Below, one piece after another: positions 982 to 31,661 of a stretch of DNA of 46,410 nt. The stretch spans positions 1-46,410 of IMG/VR virus record IMGVR_UViG_2721755497_000002; one strand, written 5' to 3'. The translations under genes were made by a program, and so were the position numbers. The number at the start of each line of letters is the position of its first letter. Position 1 is the stretch's first letter. Below the pieces are notes generated by a model. It saw nothing but the letters and a program-made list of their open reading frames with translations, searched no databases and was not told where the DNA came from. Source of the stretch: a virus (Duplodnaviria; Heunggongvirae; Uroviricota; Caudoviricetes).

Positions 982-1063
982 AAATTCAATCACTTACACA
1001 TCATTAAGTCAGTGACAAAAATCACACTTGGAATTACTTGGAATATTTTCTTGGAATATTTTC
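982..1063. repeat. attL candidate: tRNA 3' flank with tandem direct repeats (CTTGGAAT x3, including TTGGAATATTTTC x2) overlapping the int 3' end; possible arm-type Int binding sites
   Basis: Direct repeats visible at about 1027-1063, immediately between the tRNA and the integrase stop codon. Confidence 0.3.
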
Positions 1064-2059
1064 AGGTAACGGGACATCAAGTGTTGGTGAAACTTTAACC
1101 TTCCTGTCATAGATTAGCACTTGCCCTTCGGTTTTGTGACCAGAGAAAAGTTGCTTATCCCGGCTGCTTCCTTCATAGTCTGAAATTCCTTTCGCCTTCA
1201 GATCATGAAAGGTGAAGTCGGATAAAATACCTGAAATTTTTCCAGCACGATTTCTTGCTTCTACCCACATTTCGTTAAAGCCTTTGTACATATATCGGTT
1301 GCCGTATTGATTGCTGATCACATAGGCAGATTTTGGTAACTGTTTTGCTTTTTCGATCGCTGCCTGTAATCGTGGACTCCATGCTTTTATCTGTTTTTTT
1401 CCGGTTTTCCCTTGCTGGATGAATATCCCGTCGTTTCCAATCTGTTCCCATTTCAGCGATAACACATCGGAAACCCTCGCTGCACACAGATAGGCAATTT
1501 CCATTGCGATAAAAACAGGAAGAGGTGCAACGCTTAATACTGCCTGGTATTCTTTGTCGGTTACATATCGTTCGCGGTTTTTGGCCTTGAATTTACTTAC
1601 ACCTGCACATGGGTTAGCCTTGACGTACCCTCGCTCATACCCCCAACTGTAAACACGGGACATACTGCTTTTTTCATGGTTGGCTTGCGTTTTACTCTGC
1701 TCCCCTCTTTTGTCCATGTATCGACGGATGTGTTCTGGTTTTATGGAATCCGCTGGTACCTTACCGAATACGGCAAGCAACTTTTTTTGATGTTGCAGAT
1801 AATCTTTTTGTGTTCTTGGACTAAGGTCACTGTAATAGGCGCTGGCGAGGAATTTTTCCCACAAGCGACCGAATGTCATTGCACGATCGCGATTATTTAC
1901 AGTTTCCTCATACTTTTTCCATAAAGCAGCTAAACCATCCTTGATGGCGGTTAGTGTGACAGATTCTCTGGATGTTGGTTTCCATACATAACTATATTTA
2001 TTTGGGTATACATTTGGAGGTAATTTTTCGTGTTCAGGATTTTTCCTTCGTCTTCCCAT
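1034..2059 (-). CDS. int: Tyrosine integrase, lambda Int family
   Basis: 341-aa ORF; N-terminus MGRRRK...LPPN resembles lambda Int; directly adjacent to the tRNA integration site. Confidence 0.9.
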   Translation of the reverse strand: MGRRRKNPEHEKLPPNVYPNKYSYVWKPTSRESVTLTAIKDGLAALWKKYEETVNNRDRAMTFGRLWEKFLASAYYSDLSPRTQKDYLQHQKKLLAVFGKVPADSIKPEHIRRYMDKRGEQSKTQANHEKSSMSRVYSWGYERGYVKANPCAGVSKFKAKNRERYVTDKEYQAVLSVAPLPVFIAMEIAYLCAARVSDVLSLKWEQIGNDGIFIQQGKTGKKQIKAWSPRLQAAIEKAKQLPKSAYVISNQYGNRYMYKGFNEMWVEARNRAGKISGILSDFTFHDLKAKGISDYEGSSRDKQLFSGHKTEGQVLIYDRKVKVSPTLDVPLPENIPRKYSK

Positions 2060-2320: not shown

Positions 2321-4762
2321 TTAAAAATCAGCCTGACTCGGGATCAGTTTTTGCCAGATAGCTGAAACGTATTTTGCCTGGTAACGAGCGTCATCAAGTG
2401 CATTATGGCGCTCACCTTCGAATGGGATAGCAGTTCTGGCATCGAAGTCTATGGCTTTCCCCAGCTCAACGATTGTGCGTACATCGCGATCGTTGCAGTA
2501 GCGCCATGGGCAGGGGATACCCTGTCGTTCGTATGAACGGCGTAAAATCACGTTGTCGAAGTTGGCCCCATTACCCCAGACCTGAACAAAAAATTCACCG
2601 GAGTTTTCGTCGATAAATTCCCGCAATTGCAGTAGTGCATCATCTAACGGGATTTCATCGGTCATAATGGCAGACTGCGCTTCACGTGATTGCTTCAGCC
2701 ACCATTTAATGACGTCACGATCAATGACTCCGCCAGCAGTATCCAGATCGATGGTCTTGCTAAATTCCGGTCCCATATCTCCGGTTTGTGGATCGAAAAA
2801 TATTGCGCCTATTGAGATAATCGGGGCATCGGGATTTATTCCCATGGTTTCAAGGTCGATCATCAGATGAATCCCCGCTCTGCTGGTGGATGTGAGATTA
2901 TGATGACCGTTCGCCTTAATTAAGGGATCTGACGCCTCGCCAGTTTCACTATCGCTGGCATGATGCTGATTGCCGCCAGTGTTCTCCTTGTGCTGATGCG
3001 CAGTGCCTTCCATTTCCTCCGGATCATTTTCCTGAACTTCAGGCTGATTCTCTCCATCGAATATTTCCTGGTATGTTGCGTCACCCATCACCGCACCACA
3101 ATCAGGGCAGTTGCCGCCACCGCTATGACCGCAGGCGGTGCAGATCTTTTCCGGTTCCTGTTGCACTACTGGTTCAGGTTGTTTCGTTTCTGGCTCGTTT
3201 TGTTGCGTATTTGGGCTGTTTTGTTCCGCTTTCTGGTCGTTCTGTTCCGTTTCTTGCTGGTTCTGGTTCACAGAATCGCGAGTCTGGATCCCCTTGACCC
3301 ATTTCGGATCATTAGGGTCGCTAATCCCCTCAACAAATTCACCACGCGATACAGCAAGTAACTTATCGGCGTCAGGCTGGCTGATATTGGCTGCCTGCAT
3401 AATTTTGTTTACTTCGTCAGCGGTGACTTTTACCTGGTTAGCGGAACTCACCTGCGACTGAGCATCCAGCGACTGCGCGTTCTGGCAATGTTCAGTTGTA
3501 TCCGGTTCCATTGTTTCAGTTGTTGCCTGTTCACCTGCCATTGCGTCAGATGGTTGTGGTTTTTCTTCCTCTGTTTCACGTTCAGTAACCACCTCGCGGT
3601 TAATTTCTTCCAGGATATCTTTTTCCGGCGTATGCCGGGCAGCTGTGAGAGTTTCCTTGCTGGGGTTCTCGTGATCAGTTTCCGTCAAATAGGCGTTGAT
3701 ATACCCCTGAAGGCGTCCCGGGTAGTGATAAAATTCAGGGTGTGCGCTTCGGATAAGTGCAAAAATAGCGGCGCGGGAATAGTCCAGAATACCCGGGGTT
3801 GCACGAAGTGCTGAGGACCATTCTTTGAACGGACTTTCTTTTTTCAGGACTACTTCTTTTGCGCGACGATAAACGCTGCCCGGAATTTCATAAATATTAA
3901 AATCCATCGGAAGTGTGGCTGCTGCAATCTCCACATCCAGTGTGTCGAGGGTGTGTACTAAATTCGGATTGCGATCGGTTTTGTTCCCACCGCCAGCATT
4001 AGCACCGGAAGCCGTGCGGGTGATGCGTGAAACACGATTTCCTTTCATCCACTCTTTTGTCAGCAGACCCCGATCAATGTAGTCAGCGTCCAGGTATGCT
4101 TCGAAAAAAGCAGTTATTAGTCCCAGGTCTGAATTACCAGGATTAGGGAAAACTTTGTCAGTGTCACGAACCAGTTTGTGGAGGTCGCGAATCTCCAGCG
4201 AGTCGAGCAGACTGGTTTTATGCGAAATAGCCAGGGCAGTAACAGCCGGTAGTTCTTCAGCCCGTGCAATGTGTAATGCCTGGAGTTCGTCGCGTGAAAC
4301 GTGCGTTACTGGTTTTTCGCTGCCGTGTTGAGCAAGCCAACGAATGGGCAGTTCCTGACCGGAGACAGGCAGAAGCATGCTCTCCTCAATCTCAGTCATG
4401 TCTTCGCCGTTGATGTTGGTATTGTCAGTGCTGGCTGGTTTGTCCTGAACAGAGGGGGAAGGGCCGATAAATGTCATTGTGATGCCATCTTTCCCGCCTT
4501 TTTCATAGCGGTTGCAGAATTCAGTATCAAACACGCCTTCTGGCGGAAGGTCGTCAACAACGGGCAAATTGACGCGGACGGGTTTTTTAAAGTCGTCTTC
4601 ATCATAATCGTTGTCATCCATTGCGGTAATGCAGCGGGAGATTGCAACAGATAATTTTTTTGCTGTAGTCCAGTAAAAACCACCTTTAATTCCCAGGCGT
4701 TTTCTTACTTTGTCATTTTTTGCTTCGCAATATAGTGCAAATTCTTCTTTATCAGTGCTCAT
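2321..4762 (-). CDS. Large phage exonuclease: long acidic N-terminal region with a C4 zinc ribbon and a C-terminal DnaQ-like (DEDDh) 3'-5' exonuclease domain; the type often annotated exodeoxyribonuclease VIII-like in lambdoid prophages
   Basis: 813-aa ORF; C-terminal motifs IDLETMG (Exo I), WGNGANFD (Exo II), HNALDDARY (Exo III); zinc ribbon CTACGHSGGGNCPDCG. Confidence 0.75.
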   Translation of the reverse strand: MSTDKEEFALYCEAKNDKVRKRLGIKGGFYWTTAKKLSVAISRCITAMDDNDYDEDDFKKPVRVNLPVVDDLPPEGVFDTEFCNRYEKGGKDGITMTFIGPSPSVQDKPASTDNTNINGEDMTEIEESMLLPVSGQELPIRWLAQHGSEKPVTHVSRDELQALHIARAEELPAVTALAISHKTSLLDSLEIRDLHKLVRDTDKVFPNPGNSDLGLITAFFEAYLDADYIDRGLLTKEWMKGNRVSRITRTASGANAGGGNKTDRNPNLVHTLDTLDVEIAAATLPMDFNIYEIPGSVYRRAKEVVLKKESPFKEWSSALRATPGILDYSRAAIFALIRSAHPEFYHYPGRLQGYINAYLTETDHENPSKETLTAARHTPEKDILEEINREVVTERETEEEKPQPSDAMAGEQATTETMEPDTTEHCQNAQSLDAQSQVSSANQVKVTADEVNKIMQAANISQPDADKLLAVSRGEFVEGISDPNDPKWVKGIQTRDSVNQNQQETEQNDQKAEQNSPNTQQNEPETKQPEPVVQQEPEKICTACGHSGGGNCPDCGAVMGDATYQEIFDGENQPEVQENDPEEMEGTAHQHKENTGGNQHHASDSETGEASDPLIKANGHHNLTSTSRAGIHLMIDLETMGINPDAPIISIGAIFFDPQTGDMGPEFSKTIDLDTAGGVIDRDVIKWWLKQSREAQSAIMTDEIPLDDALLQLREFIDENSGEFFVQVWGNGANFDNVILRRSYERQGIPCPWRYCNDRDVRTIVELGKAIDFDARTAIPFEGERHNALDDARYQAKYVSAIWQKLIPSQADF

Positions 4763-4855: not shown

Positions 4856-5047
4856 TTAAAATCCTGCCGGGATTTCGTTATTATCCTGGTGAATAACTTT
4901 ATCGACCGGATAACAGTTGCCTGGAATTTTCTGTTCGGTTGCTGCTGCCATACATTCCTGCATTGTTCTGTGAACACTGACTGCAATATCAACTGGCTCT
5001 CCGGAAACAAGAAAAACCGTCAGAATAAGTGCAAATACTGGATTCAT
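4856..5047 (-). CDS. ydfD: YdfD, small membrane lysis protein of the dicB operon
   Basis: Internal Met of ORF 4856..5101 gives 63 aa MNPVFALILTVFLVSGEPVD... matching YdfD as recalled; start overlaps dicB stop (ATGA). Confidence 0.75.
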   Translation of the reverse strand: MNPVFALILTVFLVSGEPVDIAVSVHRTMQECMAAATEQKIPGNCYPVDKVIHQDNNEIPAGF

Positions 5048-5232
5048 TGTGCACATCCCTTTGGCATCAGACGTAAACGGGCCAGCATTGAAACAATGCA
5101 TACTTTATTTAATAACTCCCGTTCGTGTTTTCTTTTGTTAATGGCATCTTCAGTAAATACAGGATTACTGATAGTGACACCAATTTCAAAACAACCTTCA
5201 GACGTATTAACGTTTGGTAATAACGTTTTCAT
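5044..5232 (-). CDS. dicB: DicB cell division inhibitor (MinC-activating)
   Basis: Internal Met of ORF 5044..5337 gives 62 aa MKTLLPNVNTSEGCFEIGVTISNPVFTEDAINKRK...MPKGCAQ, matching DicB of Qin prophage. Confidence 0.85.
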   Translation of the reverse strand: MKTLLPNVNTSEGCFEIGVTISNPVFTEDAINKRKHERELLNKVCIVSMLARLRLMPKGCAQ

Positions 5233-5406: not shown

Positions 5407-5459
5407 GGGCGGCAGAGCAGTCACGGAGTAAAACTGATACCGCCAAACGTCACCAGAAA
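5407..5459 (-). ncRNA. dicF: DicF small RNA (Hfq-dependent, represses ftsZ)
   Basis: Reverse complement reads TTTCTGGTGACGTTTGGCGGTATCAGTTTTACTCCGTGACTGCTCTGCCGCCC followed by a U-tract; lies between ydfC and dicB as in Qin. Confidence 0.8.
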
Positions 5460-6622: not shown

Positions 6623-6901
6623 TTAGGGAAACTGGCGTCTTGCGTGGATCACGTTTACTACTTCAACGCTTGATGTTGTTACGCGGTATAGAATTATATA
6701 GTTAGGGTGGGCCACAATCTCACGCAAGCCAGGTACTCTGTCGCTTGGTGGGTATAAATACGGATGTTCGGATAATGGCAGCACACAACCCCTTAATCGC
6801 TGCCATAAGCGTTCAGCCGCATCTACGTCGAAACGAGCAATATAACTAGTTATATCATCTAGGTCGGTATCTGCGCTTTCAAGCCATAACACGGGTAACA
6901 T
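6623..6901 (-). CDS. ParE/RelE-family type II toxin (candidate)
   Basis: About 92 aa from internal Met (MLPVLWLESADTDLDDITSYIARF...IHARRQFP); size and composition typical of ParE/RelE toxins; start is 1 nt after the stop of the upstream small gene. Confidence 0.65.
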   Translation of the reverse strand: MLPVLWLESADTDLDDITSYIARFDVDAAERLWQRLRGCVLPLSEHPYLYPPSDRVPGLREIVAHPNYIILYRVTTSSVEVVNVIHARRQFP

Positions 6902-6902
6902 T

Positions 6903-7094
6903 TTACTGCTTGCTCCGTTCCTTCCGCATTTTAGCAAAGCGTTCTGCCATTCTGCGCTCAACTTCGTCATGGGGAATTGCTGGGCGCGGATCTGCAAGGC
7001 TTGTTGCTACTTTCGCACGCAGCCATTCGTTGTAACTGTTTTCTTGTTCAATGGTTTCAAATTCAGAAACCATTGGTGAAAGGGCTCTATTCAT
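6903..7094 (-). CDS. Cognate antitoxin candidate (small DNA-binding protein)
   Basis: 63 aa from internal Met (MNRALSPMVSEFETIEQENSYNEWLRAK...); GGAGG Shine-Dalgarno 4 nt upstream; immediately upstream of and coupled to the toxin gene. Confidence 0.55.
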   Translation of the reverse strand: MNRALSPMVSEFETIEQENSYNEWLRAKVATSLADPRPAIPHDEVERRMAERFAKMRKERSKQ

Positions 7095-7114: not shown

Positions 7115-7486
7115 TCAGGCGCGGCGGCATTTTTGCGCCGCAATCCATCTCGCTATGAGATCTTCCATTGATTCTTTTTTCTGCTTTAACTCGCTGATTA
7201 TCTGGCGTTGCTCATCCTCAGGGAAGGCTGAAAAAATCTGCAATAATTCCAGTTGATTAGACGTTAACCCTGCATGTGGTGGAGAAACCTCAGGTTGTTC
7301 TGCGTATTCCACATCTAGATACCCATCCGGCATCCCGTATGTTTGCTCTATTCTTCTGGCAGCCTTTTCTCCAAACGAGGCTCTCCCACTCATTAGTTGA
7401 GATAGGTAGCTCTTCTCTTTGGGTGGCAGAGTTTTATCTTTAAACCACTCCTTGAGACGTAAACGGCGAATTTCTTTTTTTTGCAT
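7115..7486 (-). CDS. Phage repressor, cI/DicA-like (HTH XRE family)
   Basis: 123 aa from internal Met MQKKEIRRLRLKEWF...; HTH region SYLSQLMSGRASFGEKAARRIEQ; divergent from the cro-like gene across an operator-rich spacer. Confidence 0.8.
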   Translation of the reverse strand: MQKKEIRRLRLKEWFKDKTLPPKEKSYLSQLMSGRASFGEKAARRIEQTYGMPDGYLDVEYAEQPEVSPPHAGLTSNQLELLQIFSAFPEDEQRQIISELKQKKESMEDLIARWIAAQKCRRA

Positions 7487-13821: not shown

Positions 13822-14088
13822 TTTTATACCTTTTGTGTTGTGTGAACGATGAGTATAGTCAGAAATGAGACTGTGAAGGGGGATAGAAAATAATAGTTTG
13901 TTTTTGTAGAATCGCTGCGGGTGCTTGGGGCTATCTGTCTCAGGCATGAACACCAAAAGGCAGATAGAGAAAAGCCCCAGTTAACATTACGCGTCCGGCA
14001 AGACGCTTAACATTAATCTGAGGCCATATCTATGACTTGCACGCGTAGGTTAGCCTCTTACGTGCCGAAAGGCAAGGAGAAGCAGGCT

Positions 14089-14244
14089 ATGAAGCAGCAA
14101 AAGGCGATGTTAATCGCCCTGATCGTCATCTGTTTAACCGTCATAGTGACGGCACTGGTAACGAGGAAAGACCTCTGCGAGGTACGAATCCGAACCGGCC
14201 AGACGGAGGTCGCTGTCTTCACAGTCTACGAACCTGAGGAGTAA
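14089..14244 (+). CDS. hokD: Hok/Gef-family type I toxin
   Basis: Internal Met of ORF 14032..14244 gives MKQQKAMLIALIVICLTVIVTALVTRKDLCEVRIRTGQTEVAVFTVYEPEE, a near match to HokD/RelF as recalled; upstream in-frame extension is consistent with a mok-like leader. Confidence 0.8.
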   Translation: MKQQKAMLIALIVICLTVIVTALVTRKDLCEVRIRTGQTEVAVFTVYEPEE

Positions 14245-14691: not shown

Positions 14692-15747
14692 GTGCGGATA
14701 TTACTTCGACCTGTTCTGGTACCGGAACTCGGGCTGGTGGTCCTTAGGCCGGGCCGTGAATCCATGCAAGTATTTCATAACCCTCGAGTGCTGGTGGAGC
14801 CTGAACCGAAAAGCATGCGCGGTCTGCCGTCCGGAGTCGTCCCTGCCGTTCGCCAGCCGCTGGCGGAGGATAAATCATTACTGCCATTTTTCAGCGATGA
14901 GCGGGTGATTCGTGCTGCTGGCGGCGCTGGGGCACTGTCTGACTGGCTGTTGCGTCATGTCAAATCCTGCCAGTGGCCTCATGGTGACTATCATCACAGT
15001 GAAATCGTCATACATCGTTACGGTACCGGCGCGATGGTGTTGTGCTGGCACTGCGACAACCAGTTGCGTGACCAGACATCCGAATCACTCGGGCAACTTG
15101 CTCATCAAAACCTGTCAGCATGGATGATTGACGTCATCGGTCACGCAATAAGCGGTACGCAGGAGCGTGAATTATCTCTGGCTGAATTATCCTGGTGGGC
15201 GGTCCGCAATCAGGTGGCGGACGCGCTACCGGAAGCGGTATTACGTCGTTCGCTGGGGTTGCGTGCGGAAAAAATCCGTTCAATGTACCGTGAAAGCGAC
15301 ATCGTACCGGGAGAGCAGACCTCCACCAGCATACTGAAGCAGCGCACAAAAAATCTTGCGCCGCTGCCTCACGCCCACCAGCAAAACCCGCCACAGGAAA
15401 AGACGGTGGTCAGCATTGCTGTTGATCCGGAGTCACCGGCTCAGTATCTCCAGCGCCAGAAACCACAACGGGAAGAGATGCCTGTATACACGCGCTGGGT
15501 AAAAACGCAGAAATGCATGACGTGCGGTAATCAGGCAGATGATCCGCATCACATCATTGGTCATGGACTGGGAGGGACGGGAACAAAGGCTGATGATTTG
15601 TTTGTTATTCCGCTGTGCCGTAAATGTCATAACGAACTGCATGCCGGGGTAAAAGATTTTGAAGAAAAACACGGCAGCCAGCTGTTGTTGCTGATTCGTT
15701 TTTTAATGCACGCGAGAAATTCGGGTGTCCTGAAGTGGAAAGCATGA
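14692..15747 (+). CDS. DUF968 protein (YdfU-like; HNH-like zinc finger CMTCGNQADDPHHIIGHG...CRKCHNELH)
   Basis: ORF 14620..15747; probable GTG start at 14692 with GGAGG overlapping upstream stop (alternative ATG 14620); 352 aa. Confidence 0.65.
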   Translation: MRILLRPVLVPELGLVVLRPGRESMQVFHNPRVLVEPEPKSMRGLPSGVVPAVRQPLAEDKSLLPFFSDERVIRAAGGAGALSDWLLRHVKSCQWPHGDYHHSEIVIHRYGTGAMVLCWHCDNQLRDQTSESLGQLAHQNLSAWMIDVIGHAISGTQERELSLAELSWWAVRNQVADALPEAVLRRSLGLRAEKIRSMYRESDIVPGEQTSTSILKQRTKNLAPLPHAHQQNPPQEKTVVSIAVDPESPAQYLQRQKPQREEMPVYTRWVKTQKCMTCGNQADDPHHIIGHGLGGTGTKADDLFVIPLCRKCHNELHAGVKDFEEKHGSQLLLLIRFLMHARNSGVLKWKA

Positions 15748-18243: not shown

Positions 18244-18319
18244 GGCCCTTTAGCTCAGTGGTGAGAGCGAGCGACTCATAATCGCCAGGTCGCTGGTTCA
18301 AATCCAGCAAGGGCCACCA
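18244..18319 (+). tRNA. tRNA with CAU anticodon (Met or lysidine-dependent Ile2; ileZ-like phage tRNA)
   Basis: 76 nt GGCCCTTTAGCTCAGTGGTGAGAGC...ACTCATAATCG...GGTTCAAATCCAGCAAGGGCCACCA; canonical cloverleaf. Confidence 0.8.
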
Positions 18320-18326
18320 TCTCATA

Positions 18327-18403
18327 CCGCCATTAGCTCATCGGGACAGAGCGCCAGCCTTCGAAGCTGGCGGCGCGGGGTTCGGGTCCTCGATGGCGGT
18401 CCA
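18327..18403 (+). tRNA. tRNA-Arg, anticodon UCG (argN-like phage tRNA)
   Basis: 77 nt; acceptor CCGCCAT/ATGGCGG, anticodon loop CTTCGAA, T-arm CGGGG-TTCGGGT-CCTCG, CCA end. Confidence 0.75.
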
Positions 18404-18416
18404 TTATCTGCACCAT

Positions 18417-18490
18417 GCGGTCATCGTATAATGGCTATTGCATCAGCCTTCCTGGCTGATTATGCGGGGCAATTCCCGCTGACCGCTCCA
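18417..18490 (+). tRNA. tRNA-like element, argO-like but degenerate (non-canonical anticodon loop CTTCCTG and shortened T-loop GCAATT)
   Basis: Acceptor GCGGTCA/TGACCGC with CCA end; anticodon and T-loops deviate from consensus; may be a pseudo-tRNA. Confidence 0.4.
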
Positions 18491-19104: not shown

Positions 19105-19304
19105 TTCTACATCTTTGCAGTAAACAATAATCATAATTGCATGTTTTTTCTGTGGTGGGGCATTTGGCTTCTGTTGCCTGCGATGTATTGTGGACCTGGT
19201 ATCAGCCTGCAGAAAATGCACACAGGTGTGAAGTGTTAAATTCCTCACAACTCAGAACGCAGAATGTTGTCCTGCTTGCGGGGAATTTGTTAAAAGAGTA
19301 CAGC

Positions 19305-19423
19305 ATGGTGAATCCCCCTGAGCGGAGGGGCATAATGACAGATGTTTGGTCGTGTTATCGTATAGGCAAGTTGCGGATTCTGTCTGGTCATTGCAGAATT
19401 CACCGGGAGGCACCCGGCACCAT
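19305..19423. repeat. Repeat unit copy 1 (about 119 bp): ATGGTGAATCCCCCTGAGCGGAGGGGC ... CACCGGGAGGCACCCGGCACCAT with two GC-rich hairpins
   Basis: Termini shared with copy 2 and mutually reverse-complementary (ATGGTG / CACCAT). Confidence 0.45.
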
Positions 19424-19558
19424 GTATTTTCAATATGTTATTGATCATTCTCTTTTTCGGAATACTCTGGTTATGTTTTCCTGTAACTGATAATTAAATC
19501 ACATTTTGTGTAACTGCATATTGTCTGAACGGGATAAGTTTCAGTATCTTCTGAATGT

Positions 19559-19678
19559 ATGGCGAATCCCCCTGTGCGGCGGGGCGTACTGATTTAAGTA
19601 GTCATCCAAGAATGCAGCTGAATGAAAACGCGCTCCATATTAATCAGTGGTGGAGCACCGGGAGGCACCCGGCGCCAT
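19559..19678. repeat. Repeat unit copy 2 (about 120 bp): ATGGCGAATCCCCCTGTGCGGCGGGGC ... CACCGGGAGGCACCCGGCGCCAT
   Basis: Same terminal hairpin modules as copy 1, divergent interior. Confidence 0.45.
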
Positions 19679-19707
19679 ACCGATGATGAAAGTAAATGCG
19701 TCCATCC

Positions 19708-19732
19708 GCCCCTCTCCGGAGGGGCTTTTTTA
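19708..19732 (+). terminator. Strong rho-independent terminator (GCCCCTCtccgGAGGGGC + TTTTTT) upstream of nanS-p
   Basis: 7-bp GC stem, 4-nt loop, T-tract. Confidence 0.6.
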
Positions 19733-19913
19733 TGGGCAAAAAAAGCCCGCTACGAATGGTAACGGGCTGCACAAAATAACAAAATGTGAAGTATTCTAAT
19801 CAGCCGCTGAATAATACCCGACAGTAATTAATCTGTGCAACGGTGCTTTTTCCCGCCTTGCAGGCACCGACTCTCTCATTTGATTTAACGCATTATCCCG
19901 TCCGGGAGGATTC

Positions 19914-28187: not shown

Positions 28188-29692
28188 TGGCGATTAGCGA
28201 TGATGTGATTGGTTTTTTCTCGCCCGGCTGGAAAGCAGCGCGATTACGCTCAAGGGCGTTAATTATGGCCTATGAGGCCGTGAAACCCACCAGGACGCAT
28301 AAAGCACGCCGGGAAAACCGTTCTGCTGATCAGCTCAGTAAATACGGTGCGGTTTCCCTTCGGGAGCAGGCCCGCTTTCTGGATATCAATCATGACCTGG
28401 TGATAGGCGTGTTTGACAAGCTGGAGGAGCGGGTGATTGGTGCTAAGGGGATCACCGTTGAGCCTCATCCGGTACTGAAAAACGGGAAGATTGCGGCGGA
28501 GCTGGCAGCGGATATCCGGCGGCTGTGGGCGGAATGGTCTGTCAGTCCGGATGTGACCGGACAGTACACCCGTCCCATGCTTGAACGTCTTCTGCTGCGC
28601 ACCTGGCTGCGGGACGGGGAAGTGTTTGCGCAGATGGTCAGTGGTGCGGCAGGCGGTCTTAAGCGGTCTGCCGGTGTGCCTTTCTGGCTTGAGGCGATGG
28701 AGCCGGATTTTGTGCCCATGCGCAGTGATGAGTCTGCCGGACTGAATCAGGGCGTTTTTCTGGATGAGTGGGGCAGGCCGAAAAAATATCTGGTTTACAA
28801 AAATTATCCGGTTTCCGGGATACAGAGTGATACCAAAGAGATCGCCGCAGACAATATGGTGCATCTGAAATTCACCCGCCGCCTGCACCAGACGCGCGGT
28901 GCGTCCATGCTGTCCGGCGTGATGGTGCGTATCAGTGCCCTTAAGGAATATGAAGATGCCGAACTGACAGCGGCGCGTATTGCTGCGGCGCTGGGGCTGT
29001 ATATCCGTAAGGGGGATGGACAGGATTACGACGATCAGGGAGCAGATAAAAAAGAAGAGCGTGAAGTGCATATCACCCCGGGCATTATCTATGACGATTT
29101 GCGCAAGGGTGAGGATATCGGCATGGTCAAATCCGACCGTCCTAATCCCAATCTTGAAAATTTTCGTAATGGTCAGTTGCGTGCGGTGGCTGCAGGCAGT
29201 CGTCTGAGCTTTTCCAGTACCGCACGCAACTACAACGGCACCTACAGTGCCCAGCGGCAGGAACTGGTGGAGTCCACTGACGGTTATCTTATCCTGCAGG
29301 ACTGCTTTATTGGCGCGGTAACCCGACCGGTGTACCGGGCATGGCTGAATATGGTGGTTGCTGCCGGTCTGCTGAAAATCCCGTCTGGCCTGGATATGAA
29401 GACGTTATATAACGCGACGTATTCCGGTCCGGTGATGCCGTGGATAGATCCGGTTAAGGAGGCTGAAGCCTGGCGGATACAGATCCGGGGCGGTGCCGCG
29501 ACGGAATCCGACTGGGTACGTGCCGGCGGACGTCATCCGGATGAGGTTAAACGTCGCCGCAAGGCTGAAATTGATGAAAACAGCAGACTGGGGCTGGTCT
29601 TTGATACTGACCCCGTCAACGACAAAGGAGGCAACAGTGCCGGAACTGAACGACAGCATCAGCGCGACACCGAAAGCCAGCATGAAGAATAA
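28187..29692 (+). CDS. B: Portal protein (lambda gpB-like)
   Basis: 501-aa ORF following W with overlapping TGATG; lambda B-like. Confidence 0.85.
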   Translation: MAISDDVIGFFSPGWKAARLRSRALIMAYEAVKPTRTHKARRENRSADQLSKYGAVSLREQARFLDINHDLVIGVFDKLEERVIGAKGITVEPHPVLKNGKIAAELAADIRRLWAEWSVSPDVTGQYTRPMLERLLLRTWLRDGEVFAQMVSGAAGGLKRSAGVPFWLEAMEPDFVPMRSDESAGLNQGVFLDEWGRPKKYLVYKNYPVSGIQSDTKEIAADNMVHLKFTRRLHQTRGASMLSGVMVRISALKEYEDAELTAARIAAALGLYIRKGDGQDYDDQGADKKEEREVHITPGIIYDDLRKGEDIGMVKSDRPNPNLENFRNGQLRAVAAGSRLSFSSTARNYNGTYSAQRQELVESTDGYLILQDCFIGAVTRPVYRAWLNMVVAAGLLKIPSGLDMKTLYNATYSGPVMPWIDPVKEAEAWRIQIRGGAATESDWVRAGGRHPDEVKRRRKAEIDENSRLGLVFDTDPVNDKGGNSAGTERQHQRDTESQHEE

Positions 29693-31661
29693 ATCCTGGT
29701 TCAGGATGCAGGCTGGGGGGCCGGGTGACGCGGATATTTATATTTATGACGAGATTGGTTTCTGGGGAGTTACCGCGAAGCAGTTTGTCTGCGATCTGAA
29801 TGCTCTGGGTGATATCACCCACATTAATCTCCATATCAACTCACCGGGTGGCGATGTCTTTGAAGGCATCGCCATTTTTAATGCCCTGAAAAATCAGGGG
29901 GCGACCATTACCGTGTATGTGGATGGCGTTGCCGCATCGATGGCATCCGTGATTGCGATGGCCGGTGATACGGTCATTATGCCGGAAAATTCTTTCATGA
30001 TGATCCATAAGCCATGGGGCTTCAGTGGGGGGGATGCTGAGGATATGCGCAGTTATGCCGATCTGCTGGATAAAGTCGAATCGGTACTGTTGCCAGCCTA
30101 TGCGCAAAAAACAGGAAAAACCACCGATGAAATTGCCGCCATGCTGGCGGATGAGACCTGGATGTCAGGTGCCGAGTGTCTGGCACACGGATTTGCTGAC
30201 CAGGTGACGCCAGCCGTTAAGGCAATGGCATGTATTCAGTCAAAACGTACAGAGGAATTTAAAAAGATGCCGGAATCCATCCGAAACATGATTACTCCGC
30301 CACGCAACAGTGCCCCGCATGATACCACAGTGACAATCCCTGCACCGGCGGTAACCGAACCATCGCCGGTACCGGCAGTGGCTGATGAAGCGACCATTCG
30401 CGCCGGTGTTCTGGCGGAGCAGAAAGCCCGTATGTCAGGCATTAACGATCTGTTCGCCATGTTTGGCGGTCGCTATCAGGCGCTTCAGGCACAGTGCGTG
30501 GCCGATCCTGACTGTTCGCTGGAAATGGCCCGTGAACGTCTGCTGAATGAAATGGGCAAGGAGTCCTCGCCGACCAACAAAAACACACCGGCCCATATTT
30601 ATGCCGGAAACGGTAATTTTGTGGGAGACGGGATCCGCCAGGCGCTGATGGCCCGCGCCGGATTTGAGACTACGGAGAAGGATAATGCCTATAACGGTAT
30701 GACCCTGCGTGAATGCGCCCGTATGTCACTGACAGAGCGGGGGATCGGGGTGGCCAGTTATAACCCCATGCAGATGGTGGGGCTGGCGCTGACGCACAGT
30801 ACCTCAGATTTTGGCAATATTCTGCTGGATGTGTCGAATAAGGGGTTAATCCAGGGCTGGGAGGAATCAGAAGAAACCTTCCAGAAATGGACCCGCAAAG
30901 GTCGCCTGTCTGACTTCAAAACGGCATACCGTGTGGGGATGGGGGGCTTTGGCTCACTGCGTCAGGTACGGGAAGGGGCGGAGTACAAATACATCACCAC
31001 CTCAGACCGCAAGGAGACCATTGCACTGGCGACCTACGGGGAAATTTTCTCCATCACCCGTCAGGCCATTATCAATGATGACCTGAATATGCTGGTGGAT
31101 GTCCCGATGAAGATGGGGCGTGCCGCGAAGGCAACGATTGGCGATCTAGTGTATGACGTGCTGACAAAAAATCCGAAACTGTCAGACGGTAAGGCGTTGT
31201 TCCATGCCGATCACCAGAATATTGCCACCGGCGGGATCTCCGTTTCCGGTCTGGATGCGGCACGGCAGATGATGCGCCTGCAGAAAGAGGGCAATCGTGC
31301 GCTGAATATCCGTCCGGCCTTCATGCTGGTACCGGTGGCGCTGGAGACGGTGGCAAACCAGACCATCAAATCGGTCAGTGTGAAAGGGGCGGATGCAAAC
31401 GCCGGTGTCATTAACCCGATCCAGAACTTTGCCGAAGTGATTGCGGAAGCGCGTCTTGATGCGGCAGATCCGAAAACCTGGTACCTGGCTGCGGCACAGG
31501 GGACCGACACCATTGAAGTGGCCTGGCTCGATGGTGTGGACACCCCCTACATTGACCAGCAGGAGGGTTTCACCACTGACGGTATTGCCACAAAAATCCG
31601 TATCGATGCCGGTGTGGCACCGCTTGACTGGCGCGGACTGGTACGTTCATCCGCTGCCTGA
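29637..31661 (+). CDS. Prohead protease (ClpP/S49-like) fused to major capsid protein
   Basis: ORF 29493..31661; probable GTG start 29637 after AAAGGAGG; N-terminal ClpP-like motifs (NSPGGDVFEGIAIFNAL), C-terminal capsid-like domain. Confidence 0.75.
   Translation: MPELNDSISATPKASMKNKSWFRMQAGGPGDADIYIYDEIGFWGVTAKQFVCDLNALGDITHINLHINSPGGDVFEGIAIFNALKNQGATITVYVDGVAASMASVIAMAGDTVIMPENSFMMIHKPWGFSGGDAEDMRSYADLLDKVESVLLPAYAQKTGKTTDEIAAMLADETWMSGAECLAHGFADQVTPAVKAMACIQSKRTEEFKKMPESIRNMITPPRNSAPHDTTVTIPAPAVTEPSPVPAVADEATIRAGVLAEQKARMSGINDLFAMFGGRYQALQAQCVADPDCSLEMARERLLNEMGKESSPTNKNTPAHIYAGNGNFVGDGIRQALMARAGFETTEKDNAYNGMTLRECARMSLTERGIGVASYNPMQMVGLALTHSTSDFGNILLDVSNKGLIQGWEESEETFQKWTRKGRLSDFKTAYRVGMGGFGSLRQVREGAEYKYITTSDRKETIALATYGEIFSITRQAIINDDLNMLVDVPMKMGRAAKATIGDLVYDVLTKNPKLSDGKALFHADHQNIATGGISVSGLDAARQMMRLQKEGNRALNIRPAFMLVPVALETVANQTIKSVSVKGADANAGVINPIQNFAEVIAEARLDAADPKTWYLAAAQGTDTIEVAWLDGVDTPYIDQQEGFTTDGIATKIRIDAGVAPLDWRGLVRSSAA

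What the first reader, a model, noticed from the sequence alone, without database searches (positions are those of the whole stretch)
2321..4762. 813-aa early-operon exonuclease with a DnaQ-like DEDDh domain and no adjacent annealase
The C-terminal 180 aa carry clear Exo I/II/III motifs (IDLETMG, WGNGANFD, HNALDDARY) of a 3'-5' DEDDh exonuclease. This is joined to a long acidic N-terminal region containing a C4 zinc ribbon. It sits where lambdoid phages carry exo/bet or recE/recT, yet no RecT/Bet-like gene follows; the next genes are ydfD and dicB. A 3'-5' polarity would not generate the 3' overhangs used in Red/RecET recombination, so its role may differ (anti-defence, host DNA processing).
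Basis: partly seen in the sequence, partly recalled or inferred. Interest (0 to 1): 0.45.

Follow-up and report, generated by a model that had tools for sequence, protein, structure and literature searches.

The report
RecE scaffold carrying a swapped exonuclease
This prophage gene is a chimera: the first ~613 residues are the poorly understood N-terminal region of the recombination nuclease RecE, but its usual 5'-3' nuclease domain and the partner gene recT have been replaced by a T4 DexA-like 3'-5' exonuclease domain; it is common in E. coli, already annotated, and its function has not been tested.

Summary
An intact 813-aa ORF lies at 2321-4762 (- strand). Its C-terminal domain is a DEDDh exonuclease (Pfam Rv2179c-like, E=1e-65; best structural match T4 DexA). 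It has a CxxC...CxxC zinc ribbon, and no annealase is detectable anywhere in the 46 kb.

They are 93% nucleotide-identical to genuine recE genes up to codon 612-615, where homology stops. The RecE nuclease domain and recT were exchanged together for the DEDDh module.

In viral contigs, all 165 loci with a genuine RecE nuclease carry recT. None of 74 related DEDDh loci carries a detectable annealase or RecBCD inhibitor.

DNA around the fusion gene holds 0.39 Chi sites per kb. RecE+RecT loci hold 0.04-0.06.

The full fusion is in 1227 of 5426 complete E. coli genomes, and both halves are under purifying selection.

My best inference is a 3'-end-trimming DNA exonuclease serving a phage that recombines through host RecBCD/Chi/RecA. 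This is untested.

The gene is annotated, and DnaQ-type nucleases near int were noted in 2025. I rate it a variant of known kinds, of moderate interest.

The parts
2321..4762 (-). Whole gene, 813 aa: RecE N-terminal region fused to a DEDDh exonuclease domain
   Evidence: ORF list; PGAP 'exonuclease' WP_073520620.1; Pfam PF06630 + PF16473
4463..4762 (-). aa 1-100: small alpha/beta domain at the N-terminus (overlaps Pfam Exonuc_VIII, aa 57-189)
3638..4390 (-). aa 125-375: mostly helical folded domain, the best-conserved part of the RecE N-terminal family (motifs RTxSGxxAGGxxxTDR, PGILDYSRA)
   Evidence: AF2 pLDDT 85-97; no convincing solved or viral structural relative; conserved in the alignment of 73 family members; dN/dS about 0.23
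2870..3628 (-). aa 379-631: acidic, predicted-disordered linker
   Evidence: AF2 pLDDT below 50 except short islands; 54-76% Q/N/S/T/P/G/E and pI 4.2-4.6
3275..3373 (-). aa 464-496: conserved motif DxDKLLAxSRGEFVxGISDPNDPKWVKGIxTxD inside the linker, a candidate partner-binding peptide
   Evidence: Invariant in Rac RecE, a long RecE and the window protein. Also kept in the YdfE-type fusion P0447 and in P0280, which lacks the zinc ribbon
3098..3142 (-). aa 541-555: CxxC-x7-CxxC zinc ribbon
   Evidence: Motif found; four Cys invariant in RecE proteins; dN/dS about 0.12; weak Pfam DZR hit, E=0.13; absent from homologue P0280
2915..2929 (-). Domain-swap breakpoint, codons 612-616 (...ETGEASDPLI|KANGHH...)
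   Evidence: Protein alignment with two RecE proteins breaks here. Nucleotide identity of 93% to the genuine recE genes of L083 and L088 ends at window 2929 and 2919
2354..2869 (-). aa 632-803: DEDDh (DnaQ-like, Rv2179c/DexA-type) 3'-5' exonuclease domain
   Evidence: Pfam PF16473 E=1.2e-65; PDB sequence hit to T4 DexA 8kel, E=5e-5; AF2 pLDDT 86; Foldseek top hits DexA 8ken/8kel, E=8e-11, TM 0.72, then RNase T; dN/dS about 0.13
2840..2860 (-). Exo I motif IDLETMG (D636, E638)
2555..2578 (-). Exo II motif WGNGANFD (D736)
2381..2407 (-). Exo III motif HNALDDARY (H786, D791)
4856..5232 (-). ydfD and dicB, the genes immediately upstream in the early-left operon
   Evidence: Annotation; present upstream of 72 of 75 DEDDh-fusion loci
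5407..5458 (-). dicF sRNA of the same operon
   Evidence: Rfam RF00039, 76.7 bits
1009..2262 (-). Excisionase-like DUF4224 ORF (2059-2262) and integrase (1009-2059) directly downstream. The slot where recT would lie is empty
   Evidence: Annotation; PHROGs excisionase; recT follows recE directly in L003, L004 and five IMG/VR loci

Best explanation
What it is (shown). The gene is a recE-family allele of a lambdoid, Qin/dicB-type prophage inserted at a tRNA-Ser gene next to mtfA in E. coli.
- Residues 1-~613 are the RecE N-terminal region: two folded domains, then an acidic disordered linker that carries a conserved peptide motif and a zinc ribbon.
- At codon 612-616 the RecE PD-(D/E)XK 5'-3' nuclease domain, together with the downstream recT gene, has been replaced by a DEDDh exonuclease domain of the Rv2179c/T4-DexA type. 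All five catalytic residues are intact.

How it most likely works (inferred).
- It is made from the early-left transcript (ydfABC-dicF-dicB-ydfD-exo-xis-int) after induction or infection.
- It acts as a 3'-5' DNA exonuclease that trims 3' single-stranded tails or flaps at phage DNA ends.
- The RecE N-terminal region serves as a shared targeting platform, for DNA ends or for a host partner.
- The phage has no annealase and no RecBCD inhibitor, and it is rich in correctly oriented Chi sites. It therefore probably recombines and makes concatemers through host RecBCD-Chi-RecA.
- In that setting the exonuclease would help by converting 3'-tailed ends into the blunt ends that RecBCD needs, or by removing non-homologous 3' flaps. 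It would not generate 3' overhangs for an annealase.
For: Identity:
- Pfam PF16473 (E=1e-65) plus PF06630.
- The NCBIfam exodeoxyribonuclease VIII profile is matched only over positions 1-603 of 877.
- There is a sharp alignment break after residue ~613 against two RecE proteins.
- The gene is 93% nucleotide-identical to genuine recE up to window 2919-2929, with no homology beyond.
- The catalytic residues align with DexA, and DexA is the top fold match.

Cassette logic:
- In IMG/VR, 5 of 5 loci with the RecE nuclease have recT next to it. None of the 74 DEDDh loci has RecT, Bet, Erf, Sak4, SSB, Gam, Abc2 or lambda Exo.
- All 160 further RecT loci have the RecE nuclease and none has DEDDh.
- L088 shows recE-recT behind the same dicB-ydfD genes.

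DNA and recombination context of the domain:
- A 58%-identical standalone homologue sits between SSB and Abc2 in phage mEp235.
- In 80 of 80 related viral loci it is beside Abc2, and in 73 of them also with Erf and SSB.
- T4 DexA is a DNA exonuclease (PMC12153337).

Link to RecBCD/Chi:
- The window has 17 Chi sites against 2.3 expected, 14 of them on the late-gene strand.
- Fusion loci hold 0.39 Chi/kb, 79% in that orientation. RecE+RecT loci hold 0.04-0.06 and Erf-SSB-exo-Abc2 loci 0.01.
- Lambdoid phages without a Rec module are Chi-rich, and phage LLS, the member of this class tested so far, grows better with RecBCD (PMC12315714).

The gene is functional and not decaying:
- 1227 of 5426 complete E. 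coli genomes carry the full fusion.
- dN/dS is 0.11-0.23 in the folded N-terminal domains, 0.12 in the zinc ribbon and 0.13 in the DEDDh domain.

Operon membership:
- No promoter-like site above chance lies before the gene, and dicF is in the same operon.
Against: - No activity, polarity or substrate (DNA or RNA) was measured. The founding member of the Pfam family, Rv2179c, is an exoribonuclease.
- 3'-5' exonucleases usually inhibit recombination. PMC12315714 remarks on this, and a xonA mutation enhances RecET-mediated assembly (title of PMC13048471).
- The Chi association may only reflect the absence of an annealase or RecBCD inhibitor, not cooperation with RecBCD.
- The loci compared are related prophages, so the counts are not independent events.
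- PMC12315714 states that no gene is universal in the early-left regions of phages without a Rec module. The fusion therefore cannot be essential to that lifestyle.
- The N-terminal region has no structural relative, so its 'targeting' role is a guess.
- This particular prophage may be defective: integrase and tail fibre are annotated as frameshifted.
Confidence: 0.4

Rival explanations
1. Prophage-encoded exclusion or defence nuclease. The DEDDh domain would degrade the nucleic acid of superinfecting phages. This could resemble the E. coli DexA homologue EcD (HREX), which digests 5hmC-modified T4 DNA, or the ISG20-like TONDO exonucleases, which trim RNA-phage 3' ends.
For: - EcD, a DexA homologue from E. 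coli, protects against T4 (PMC12153337).
- TONDOs are DEDDh enzymes with auxiliary domains, some of them in prophages (PMC13344964).
- DexA is the closest solved structure.
- The gene sits beside dicB.
- The gene is very widespread in E. coli prophages.
Against: - The residues reported as essential for 5hmC-DNA cleavage in DexA, W152 and D169, align with C756 and A770 here.
- EcD is a different, standalone sequence: its primers encode MIDTET... and ...TIPETYD.
- Pfam RNase_T/ISG20-type scores below its cut-off, 21.6 against 24 bits.
- PADLOC gives only a weak CRISPR-associated DEDDh hit, E=5e-5.
- The gene lies deep in the repressed early-left operon with no promoter of its own above chance.
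- The same module sits in Erf-SSB-exo-Abc2 recombination modules of non-integrated phages.
Confidence: 0.15
2. Anti-recombination or anti-defence factor. The enzyme would destroy 3' single-stranded DNA ends. That could prevent RecA loading and SOS signalling, or degrade single-stranded DNA products of host defence systems such as retron msDNA or DRT cDNAs.
For: - 3'-5' ssDNA exonucleases antagonise recombination (PMC12315714; PMC13048471 title).
- Titles and abstracts listed (papers not read) link host or phage nucleases to retron and DRT defence systems.
Against: - No defence-system or anti-defence gene association was seen around 75 loci.
- Chi-rich phages are thought to need RecA-loaded 3' tails, which indiscriminate 3' degradation would remove.
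- No homology to known anti-defence proteins was found.
Confidence: 0.12
3. Nucleotide scavenging. Like T4 DexA in host-DNA breakdown, the enzyme would convert oligonucleotides or fragmented host DNA into mononucleotides for phage replication.
For: DexA is the closest characterised relative and has this role (PMC12153337; T4 annotation).
Against: - From general knowledge, not checked here: temperate lambdoid phages are not known to degrade the host chromosome.
- No endonuclease partner is present.
- A 613-residue RecE scaffold is unnecessary for scavenging.
- The gene swaps specifically with recE-recT.
Confidence: 0.08
4. Exoribonuclease acting on phage or host RNA, for example 3' trimming of operon transcripts such as the dicF precursor. 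This would match the Rv2179c family name.
For: - The Pfam family is named for the M. tuberculosis exoribonuclease Rv2179c.
- RNase T and oligoribonuclease are the next structural matches.
- dicF is in the same operon.
Against: - The closest relative, DexA, is a DNase.
- The standalone homologues sit among DNA-recombination genes.
- The N-terminal region is shared with a DNA exonuclease.
- From my own knowledge, not checked here: dicF processing is attributed to host RNases.
Confidence: 0.08
5. Non-functional evolutionary debris left by illegitimate recombination in defective prophages.
For: This prophage has a frameshifted integrase and tail-fibre gene. K-12 carries a truncated relative, the ydfE pseudogene.
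Against: - 56 of 62 scored genes keep all three Exo motifs. At least three of the six failures are genes cut by contig ends.
- dN/dS is 0.11-0.23 in the folded parts.
- The full gene is in 1227 complete genomes and in sequenced phage isolates such as vB_EcoM-606R7 and Citrobacter phage Chris1.
- The fusion recurs with N-terminal regions only 30-40% identical.
Confidence: 0.03

Closest known systems
RecE (exodeoxyribonuclease VIII) of the Rac prophage and its RecE/RecT two-component recombinase
   Same: - The N-terminal ~613 residues are homologous, including the Exonuc_VIII Pfam region, the helical domain, the conserved DKLLAxSRGEF...DPKW motif and the zinc ribbon.
- The DNA is up to 93% identical to some recE alleles.
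- The operon slot, between the kil/dicB-type genes and xis-int, is the same.
   Different: - The C-terminal PD-(D/E)XK 5'-3' nuclease domain is absent and replaced by a DEDDh domain of opposite expected polarity.
- No recT follows.
- The score falls below the NCBIfam equivalog cut-off, 937 against 1269 bits.
- The host phage DNA is Chi-rich instead of Chi-poor.
T4 DexA (exonuclease A) and the Rv2179c-like DEDDh family (PF16473)
   Same: The catalytic pentad and fold are shared: DexA is the top Foldseek hit (TM 0.72) and a sequence hit at E=5e-5. Both are phage-borne.
   Different: - Identity is only about 26%.
- The DexA insertions are lacking.
- The residues reported for 5hmC recognition, W152 and D169, are C756 and A770 here.
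- The domain is fused to a 613-residue scaffold, not standalone.
Standalone DnaQ-type exonuclease of lambdoid Rec modules (phage mEp235 gp30, epsilon34 type)
   Same: The exonuclease domain is 58% identical. Both lie in the early-left operon of lambdoid phages. The type was noted as a Rec-module nuclease by Zheng et al. 2025 (PMC12315714).
   Different: - It is standalone, about 182 aa.
- In the 80 closely related loci examined it always lies beside Abc2, and usually beside Erf and SSB. Those loci are almost free of Chi, 0.01/kb.
- The window gene is fused to the RecE N-terminal region, has none of these partners and sits in Chi-rich DNA.
YdfE-type exonuclease of E. coli prophages (about 812 aa, e.g. 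P0447; K-12 ydfE pseudogene is its remnant)
   Same: It shares residues ~270-813 at 56% identity: part of the helical domain, the conserved motif, the zinc ribbon, the linker and the DEDDh domain. It lies in the same position after dicB-ydfD.
   Different: The first ~250 residues are unrelated (precomputed Pfam PF27430 instead of Exonuc_VIII). This type is the more common carrier of the DEDDh module in E. coli.
EcD / HREX defence exonuclease (Kang et al. 2025)
   Same: It is a DexA homologue encoded in E. coli genomes with the catalytic residues conserved (PMC12153337).
   Different: It is a different sequence and standalone. The 5hmC-recognition residues are not conserved in the window protein. 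No defence phenotype is known for the fusion.

Membership tests
DEDDh (DnaQ-like) 3'-5' exonucleases, Rv2179c/DexA subfamily (PF16473) | Profile match above the curated threshold | tested here: met
   PF16473: 221 bits against a cut-off of 27, aa 632-803 covering profile positions 2-177 of 177
DEDDh (DnaQ-like) 3'-5' exonucleases, Rv2179c/DexA subfamily (PF16473) | Exo I/II/III motifs with the D-E-D-D-h residues | tested here: met
   D636, E638, D736, H786 and D791 align with DexA D7, E9, D119, H186 and D191. All three motifs are kept in 56 of 62 related genes; at least three of the six failures are genes cut by contig ends
DEDDh (DnaQ-like) 3'-5' exonucleases, Rv2179c/DexA subfamily (PF16473) | RNase H-like DEDDh fold | tested here: met
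   AF2 model pLDDT 86; Foldseek hits DexA 8ken/8kel at E=8e-11, then RNase T, Cas2-DnaQ, Orn and Cap18
DEDDh (DnaQ-like) 3'-5' exonucleases, Rv2179c/DexA subfamily (PF16473) | Measured 3'-5' exonuclease activity and substrate (DNA or RNA) | not testable with these tools
   Needs biochemistry
RecE / exodeoxyribonuclease VIII | N-terminal Exonuc_VIII region | tested here: met
   PF06630 E=3.5e-36; NF007259 matched over profile positions 1-603; 93% nucleotide identity to genuine recE genes
RecE / exodeoxyribonuclease VIII | Full-length equivalog score | tested here: not met
   936.7 bits against a cut-off of 1269; profile positions 604-877 unmatched
RecE / exodeoxyribonuclease VIII | C-terminal PD-(D/E)XK 5'-3' nuclease domain | tested here: not met
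   The alignment breaks at residue ~613. tblastn with two RecE nuclease domains finds nothing in the window
RecE / exodeoxyribonuclease VIII | Adjacent recT annealase gene | tested here: not met
   An xis-like ORF follows after 58 bp; no annealase in the window
Lambdoid Rec module (Zheng et al. 2025: annealase, nuclease, SSB, anti-RecBCD) | Contiguous cluster with an annealase and/or an anti-RecBCD gene | tested here: not met
   Only a nuclease is present. The paper's Table 1 lists a nuclease-only, Chi-rich class ('Tritos') and separately mentions DnaQ-type genes near int. Which of these the authors would assign this gene to could not be checked, because the supplement is not held
HREX / EcD 5hmC-DNA-specific defence exonuclease | Equivalents of DexA W152 and D169 (5hmC recognition) | tested here: not met
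   C756 and A770 at the aligned positions. The alignment is at 26% identity, so moderately reliable
HREX / EcD 5hmC-DNA-specific defence exonuclease | Protection against T4 and cleavage of modified DNA only | not testable with these tools
   Needs infection assays and biochemistry
ISG20-like TONDO exoribonucleases | ISG20/RNase_T-type DEDDh domain | tested here: inconclusive
   PF00929 scores 21.6 bits, below its cut-off of 24.

The most novel reading that the evidence does not exclude
The RecE N-terminal region is a general-purpose platform that targets DNA ends or a host partner. Lambdoid phages plug nucleases of opposite polarity into it, and the choice marks two recombination lifestyles. 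One is PD-(D/E)XK nuclease plus RecT in Chi-poor genomes, which is annealase-driven. The other is DEDDh nuclease without any annealase in Chi-rich genomes, where the fusion is a dedicated helper of the host RecBCD-Chi-RecA pathway, for example by blunting 3'-tailed ends so that RecBCD can load.
Probability: 0.2. Interest if true: 0.6.

Novelty: new variant of a known kind. Interest (0 to 1): 0.4.

Why it matters
The N-terminal two-thirds of RecE has had no assigned function for decades, although full-length RecE is what makes linear-linear 'direct cloning' efficient (PMC11611040).

The same region is kept under purifying selection when the catalytic domain is exchanged for one of opposite polarity and the annealase is lost. 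This shows that the region works independently of RecT and of the 5'-3' nuclease, and it gives a natural experiment for finding out what it binds.

The roughly eight-fold or greater difference in Chi density between the two allelic states links this very common E. coli prophage gene to the recently described class of RecBCD-aided, Chi-rich lambdoid phages. The full fusion is in 23% of complete genomes and the DEDDh module in 75%. The gene is therefore a concrete candidate for testing how such phages use the host pathway.

If the gene has no such role, it is an ordinary mosaic phage nuclease.

Tried and rejected
Rejected: Pfam, the alignment and the fold all say DEDDh.
- **An overlooked annealase.** I searched the annotation of all 66 features, ran Pfam and PHROGs on the unnamed ORFs, and ran tblastn with RecT (two types), Bet, Erf, Sak4, two SSBs, Gam, Abc2 and lambda Exo. 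Nothing was found. RusA and a DUF968/HNH protein are present in the nin region, but they are not annealases.
- **K-12 YdfE as the truncated form of this protein.** Rejected: there is no similarity. YdfE belongs to the second, PF27430-type fusion.
- **Retrieving EcD for direct comparison.** Only the primer-encoded ends were available, and the 23-mer was not found in viral contigs.
- **Gifsy-1/RtcR paper (PMC9879122).** Not relevant to this gene.
- **A promoter of its own.** Nothing above chance.
- **PADLOC.** Only a weak CRISPR-associated DEDDh hit.
- **Other C-terminal domains in the RecE N-terminal family.** 23 long representatives carry tails of at least 150 aa that match neither the DEDDh domain nor the RecE nuclease by phmmer. 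The only additional Pfam domain found among them was RecT, in one protein.
- **Literature searches** for ydfE + dicB + exonuclease, and for Rv2179c + phage, found nothing on this protein.


Full report
**Source and context**

The window is identical to E. coli strain M3 chromosome NZ_CP010183.1, positions 4074694-4121103. It holds a lambdoid prophage inserted next to a tRNA-Ser gene beside mtfA. The left arm, transcribed leftward on the - strand from the immunity region at about 7.1-7.6 kb, reads: RelB/RelE, ydfA, ydfB, ydfC, dicF, dicB, ydfD, the gene under study, an excisionase-like DUF4224 ORF, and int. dicF is an Rfam hit at 5407-5458. This is an uninterrupted counterpart of the dicBF operon of the K-12 Qin prophage.

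**Checking the observation**

- The ORF 2321-4762 (-) is real and encodes 813 aa.
- The three quoted motifs are at aa 635-641, 729-736 and 786-794. A CxxC-x7-CxxC motif is at aa 541-555. The N-terminal 616 residues have pI 4.68 and a net charge of -47.
- Pfam assigns aa 632-803 to the Rv2179c-like 3'-5' exoribonuclease family, with E=1.2e-65.
- The only solved structure detectable by sequence is T4 DexA, 8kel/8ken.
- An AlphaFold2 model of aa 617-813 has pLDDT 86. It superposes best on DexA (E=8e-11, TM 0.72), then on RNase T, the Cas2-DnaQ domain, oligoribonuclease and Cap18.
- The catalytic residues D636, E638, D736, H786 and D791 align with DexA D7, E9, D119, H186 and D191.

The DEDDh assignment is therefore secure. 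The 3'-5' polarity follows from established knowledge of this superfamily and was not measured.

The N-terminal region is not anonymous.

- Pfam Exonuc_VIII matches aa 57-189.
- The NCBIfam equivalog for exodeoxyribonuclease VIII matches aa 1-616 to profile positions 1-603 of 877. The score is 937 bits, below the full-length cut-off of 1269.
- I aligned the protein with Rac RecE (866 aa) and a 1048-aa RecE from another E. coli strain. Identity is high up to ...ETGEASDPLI at about residue 613, and nothing aligns after that.
- At the DNA level the gene is 93% identical to genuine recE genes in two viral contigs (L083, L088). The identity runs from just upstream of the ATG to window 2929 and 2919, which is codon 612-615. 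Homology then ends.

This breakpoint lies close to the start of the RecE region delimited as the PD-(D/E)XK domain in a 2023 review (residues 602-866). The same review gives the nuclease domain as residues 564-866 and calls the N-terminal part 'of unknown function' (PMC11611040). The gene is thus a recE allele in which the catalytic domain has been exchanged.

**The exchange includes recT**

- In Rac and in the second E. coli locus, recT follows recE directly.
- Of 80 viral contigs encoding relatives of the window protein, five carry the RecE nuclease tail, and all five have recT next to it.
- The 74 that carry the DEDDh tail, and the window itself, have no RecT, Bet, Erf, Sak4, SSB, Gam, Abc2 or lambda Exo in the DNA fetched.
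- In 72 of the 75 DEDDh loci, dicB-ydfD lie just upstream. In those retrieved contigs the DNA held ends 1.3-2.3 kb downstream in most loci, taken up by xis/int where these are detected.
- A further 160 viral loci were retrieved with two RecT types. All have the RecE nuclease, 156 have the RecE N-terminal region, and none has DEDDh.
- L088 shows recE-recT behind the same dicB-ydfD genes.

The two states behave as alternative cassettes in one slot.

**Absence of an annealase in the window**

No annealase is annotated among the 66 features. Pfam and PHROGs scans of the unnamed ORFs found none, and neither did tblastn.

**Anatomy of the shared N-terminal region**

An AlphaFold2 model built from 73 family members predicts the following:

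- a small alpha/beta domain at aa 1-100;
- a mostly helical domain at aa 125-375, with pLDDT 85-97;
- a disordered acidic stretch at aa 379-631, containing two short helices and the zinc ribbon.

Inside the linker, the peptide DKLLAxSRGEFVxGISDPNDPKWVKGI (aa ~464-496) is invariant between RecE and the fusion. It survives in relatives that have a different N-terminus or lack the zinc ribbon. It looks like a docking motif, but that is inference.

The family is narrow: 265 clusters at 50% identity among 1.84 billion representatives. Among the 80 long representatives:

- 15 carry a DEDDh tail;
- 22 carry the RecE nuclease tail;
- 23 carry another tail of at least 150 aa that matches neither nuclease; one of these is a RecT fusion, and no other additional Pfam domain was found;
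- 20 have little or no tail.

The DEDDh tail occurs on N-terminal regions only 30-40% identical to this one. The combination is therefore old or recurrent.

**Distribution and selection**

- The DEDDh module is in 4065 of 5426 complete E. coli genomes, with up to seven copies per genome.
- The complete RecE-N::DEDDh gene is in 1227 genomes.
- Most of the remaining copies of the module appear to belong to a second fusion of about 812 aa. Its first ~250 residues are unrelated. The K-12 ydfE pseudogene is a remnant of this type.
- Standalone forms of 180-190 aa are common in Enterobacterales.
- The fusion is present in sequenced phages, for example vB_EcoM-606R7 and Citrobacter phage Chris1. In Chris1 it is again followed directly by int.
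- Rough pairwise dN/dS values are 0.11 (aa 1-100), 0.23 (aa 125-375), 0.31 (disordered part), 0.12 (zinc ribbon), 0.53 (last linker) and 0.13 (DEDDh).

Both halves are maintained by selection.

**Clues to function**

First, the domain keeps company with recombination genes. The 58%-identical standalone homologue of phage mEp235 lies between SSB and Abc2, just after Erf. In 80 of 80 close relatives from viral contigs it is beside Abc2, and in 73 of them also with Erf and SSB. It is never with Gam or lambda Exo. Zheng et al. 2025 independently list DnaQ-type nucleases as members of lambdoid Rec modules. They also mention sporadic DnaQ-type genes 'very near int' that they did not count as Rec module members. 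They remark that such nucleases usually inhibit recombination (PMC12315714).

Second, Chi sites. The window has 17 Chi sites against 2.3 expected from shuffles. Fourteen are on the late-gene strand, and three are clustered just before cos. Chi density in the phage DNA around each type of locus is:

| Locus type | Chi per kb |
|---|---|
| RecE-N::DEDDh fusion (79% in the late-gene orientation) | 0.39 |
| RecE+RecT | 0.04-0.06 |
| Erf-SSB-exo-Abc2 | 0.01 |
| E. coli chromosome | 0.22 |

Sources; the chromosome figure comes from PMC12315714.

Zheng et al. showed that lambdoid phages without an annealase or a RecBCD inhibitor are Chi-rich. Their isolate LLS grows better with RecBCD. They propose that such phages use RecBCD-Chi to make concatemers. 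The window prophage fits that class. It even has the fused prohead protease/capsid gene reported for LLS's relatives.

**Best explanation**

The protein is an early-expressed 3'-5' DNA exonuclease, delivered by the RecE N-terminal platform. It processes 3' tails or flaps on phage DNA ends in a phage that recombines through host RecBCD/Chi/RecA and not through an annealase. From established knowledge, RecBCD loads only on blunt or nearly blunt ends, and host 3' exonucleases help to prepare them. A phage-encoded end-blunting activity would therefore be useful.

Shown: the domain identities, the breakpoint, the mutually exclusive cassettes, the Chi contrast, the distribution and the purifying selection.

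Inferred: the substrate, the polarity, the timing of expression, the role of the N-terminal region and any cooperation with RecBCD.

The Chi contrast could simply reflect the absence of an annealase. In addition, the loci compared are related prophages and not independent events.

**Rivals**

- **Defence, DNA version.** An E. coli DexA homologue, EcD, protects against T4 by digesting 5hmC DNA (PMC12153337). However, the two residues reported as needed for that specificity, W152 and D169, are C756 and A770 here. EcD is a different standalone sequence. The gene also lies in a repressed operon without a promoter of its own above chance.
- **Defence, RNA version.** ISG20-like TONDO exonucleases restrict RNA phages (PMC13344964). 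The ISG20/RNase_T profile scores below threshold here.
- **Anti-defence, nucleotide scavenging or RNA processing.** None of these can be excluded, but none has specific support.
- **Decay.** Contradicted by the selection and distribution data.

**Novelty**

The protein is 100% identical to a RefSeq entry, and PGAP names it 'exonuclease' or '3'-5' exonuclease'. PHROGs families cover it. The PF06630+PF16473 architecture is precomputed in public data. DnaQ-type nucleases near int were noted in 2025. I found no paper that describes the RecE-N::DEDDh swap, its exclusivity with recT or its link to Chi, and none that tests the protein.

I rate it a new variant of known kinds: a RecE-family scaffold carrying a DexA-type nuclease. 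It is of moderate interest, mainly because it offers a handle on the long-unexplained RecE N-terminal region and on the RecBCD-dependent lambdoid lifestyle.

Noticed in passing
window, whole; + strand sites at 2193, 2882, 8142, 12762, 14733, 14790, 18172, 23224, 23626, 23673, 26163, 31091, 34344, 34869; - strand at 15323, 15375, 22524: Chi (GCTGGTGG) is strongly over-represented: 17 sites against 2.3 expected from shuffles. It is also strand-biased, 14:3 towards the late-gene strand, with three sites within about 2 kb upstream of the terminase genes (presumed cos end). This fits the Chi-rich, RecBCD-aided class of lambdoid phages described in PMC12315714.
   Followed up: yes
window 2882-2889 (+): One Chi site lies 30-47 bp from the domain-swap breakpoint (2919-2929). 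It sits inside the short leader, where its complement encodes S-T-S. The same leader is present in the YdfE-type fusion. This may be coincidence, or a trace of how the cassette was exchanged.
   Followed up: partly
window 2861-2876 (-): A Shine-Dalgarno-like GGGGA lies 8 nt before the in-frame ATG of M634. Some databases list 180-aa 'complete' proteins that start exactly there (MIDLETMG..., e.g. P0026). Internal initiation giving a free DEDDh domain is conceivable but untested.
   Followed up: no
L092:4079-4999 (K-12 ydfE) and proteins P0392-P0508: There is a second, more common prophage exonuclease architecture of about 812-827 aa. It has an unrelated N-terminus (precomputed Pfam PF27430), then a shared middle region, zinc ribbon and DEDDh domain. 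The K-12 ydfE pseudogene, interrupted by IS2, is a remnant of this type and not of the RecE-N type.
   Followed up: partly
window 5407-5458 (-): A dicF sRNA gene (Rfam 76.7 bits) lies between ydfC and dicB. The operon is an uninterrupted counterpart of the K-12 Qin dicBF operon.
   Followed up: partly
window 6623-7094 (-): A RelE/ParE-RelB toxin-antitoxin pair is inserted between the repressor-like gene (7115-7486) and ydfA. A homologue of the RelE toxin was detected in only 13 of 75 related loci, so this is a variable insertion.
   Followed up: partly
window 19274-19478 and 19529-19737 (+); 18244-18490 (+): Two tandem copies of the sRNA STnc100 (119 and 98 bits) lie downstream of a three-tRNA cluster (Ile, Arg, Gly) in the late-regulatory region after the Q antiterminator.
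   Followed up: no
window 13919-14244 (+) and 43816-43956 (+): A hokD/sok type I toxin-antitoxin locus lies in the nin region, and a second Hok/Gef family gene lies after the tail tip gene J.
   Followed up: no
window 1009-2059 (-) and 44098-45505 (+): PGAP marks both the integrase and the tail-fibre gene as frameshifted, so this copy of the prophage may be defective. However, a 341-aa ORF from an ATG at 2059 reads through to 1034.
   Followed up: no
window 29682-31661 (+): The prohead protease and major capsid protein are fused into one gene (Gifsy-2 type). PMC12315714 reports the same arrangement for relatives of the Chi-rich phage LLS.
   Followed up: no
protein P0244: One representative of the RecE N-terminal family is fused directly to a RecT domain (Pfam RecT E=1e-42 at aa 528-678), with no nuclease domain. 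It may be a deletion product or a real single-chain variant.
   Followed up: no
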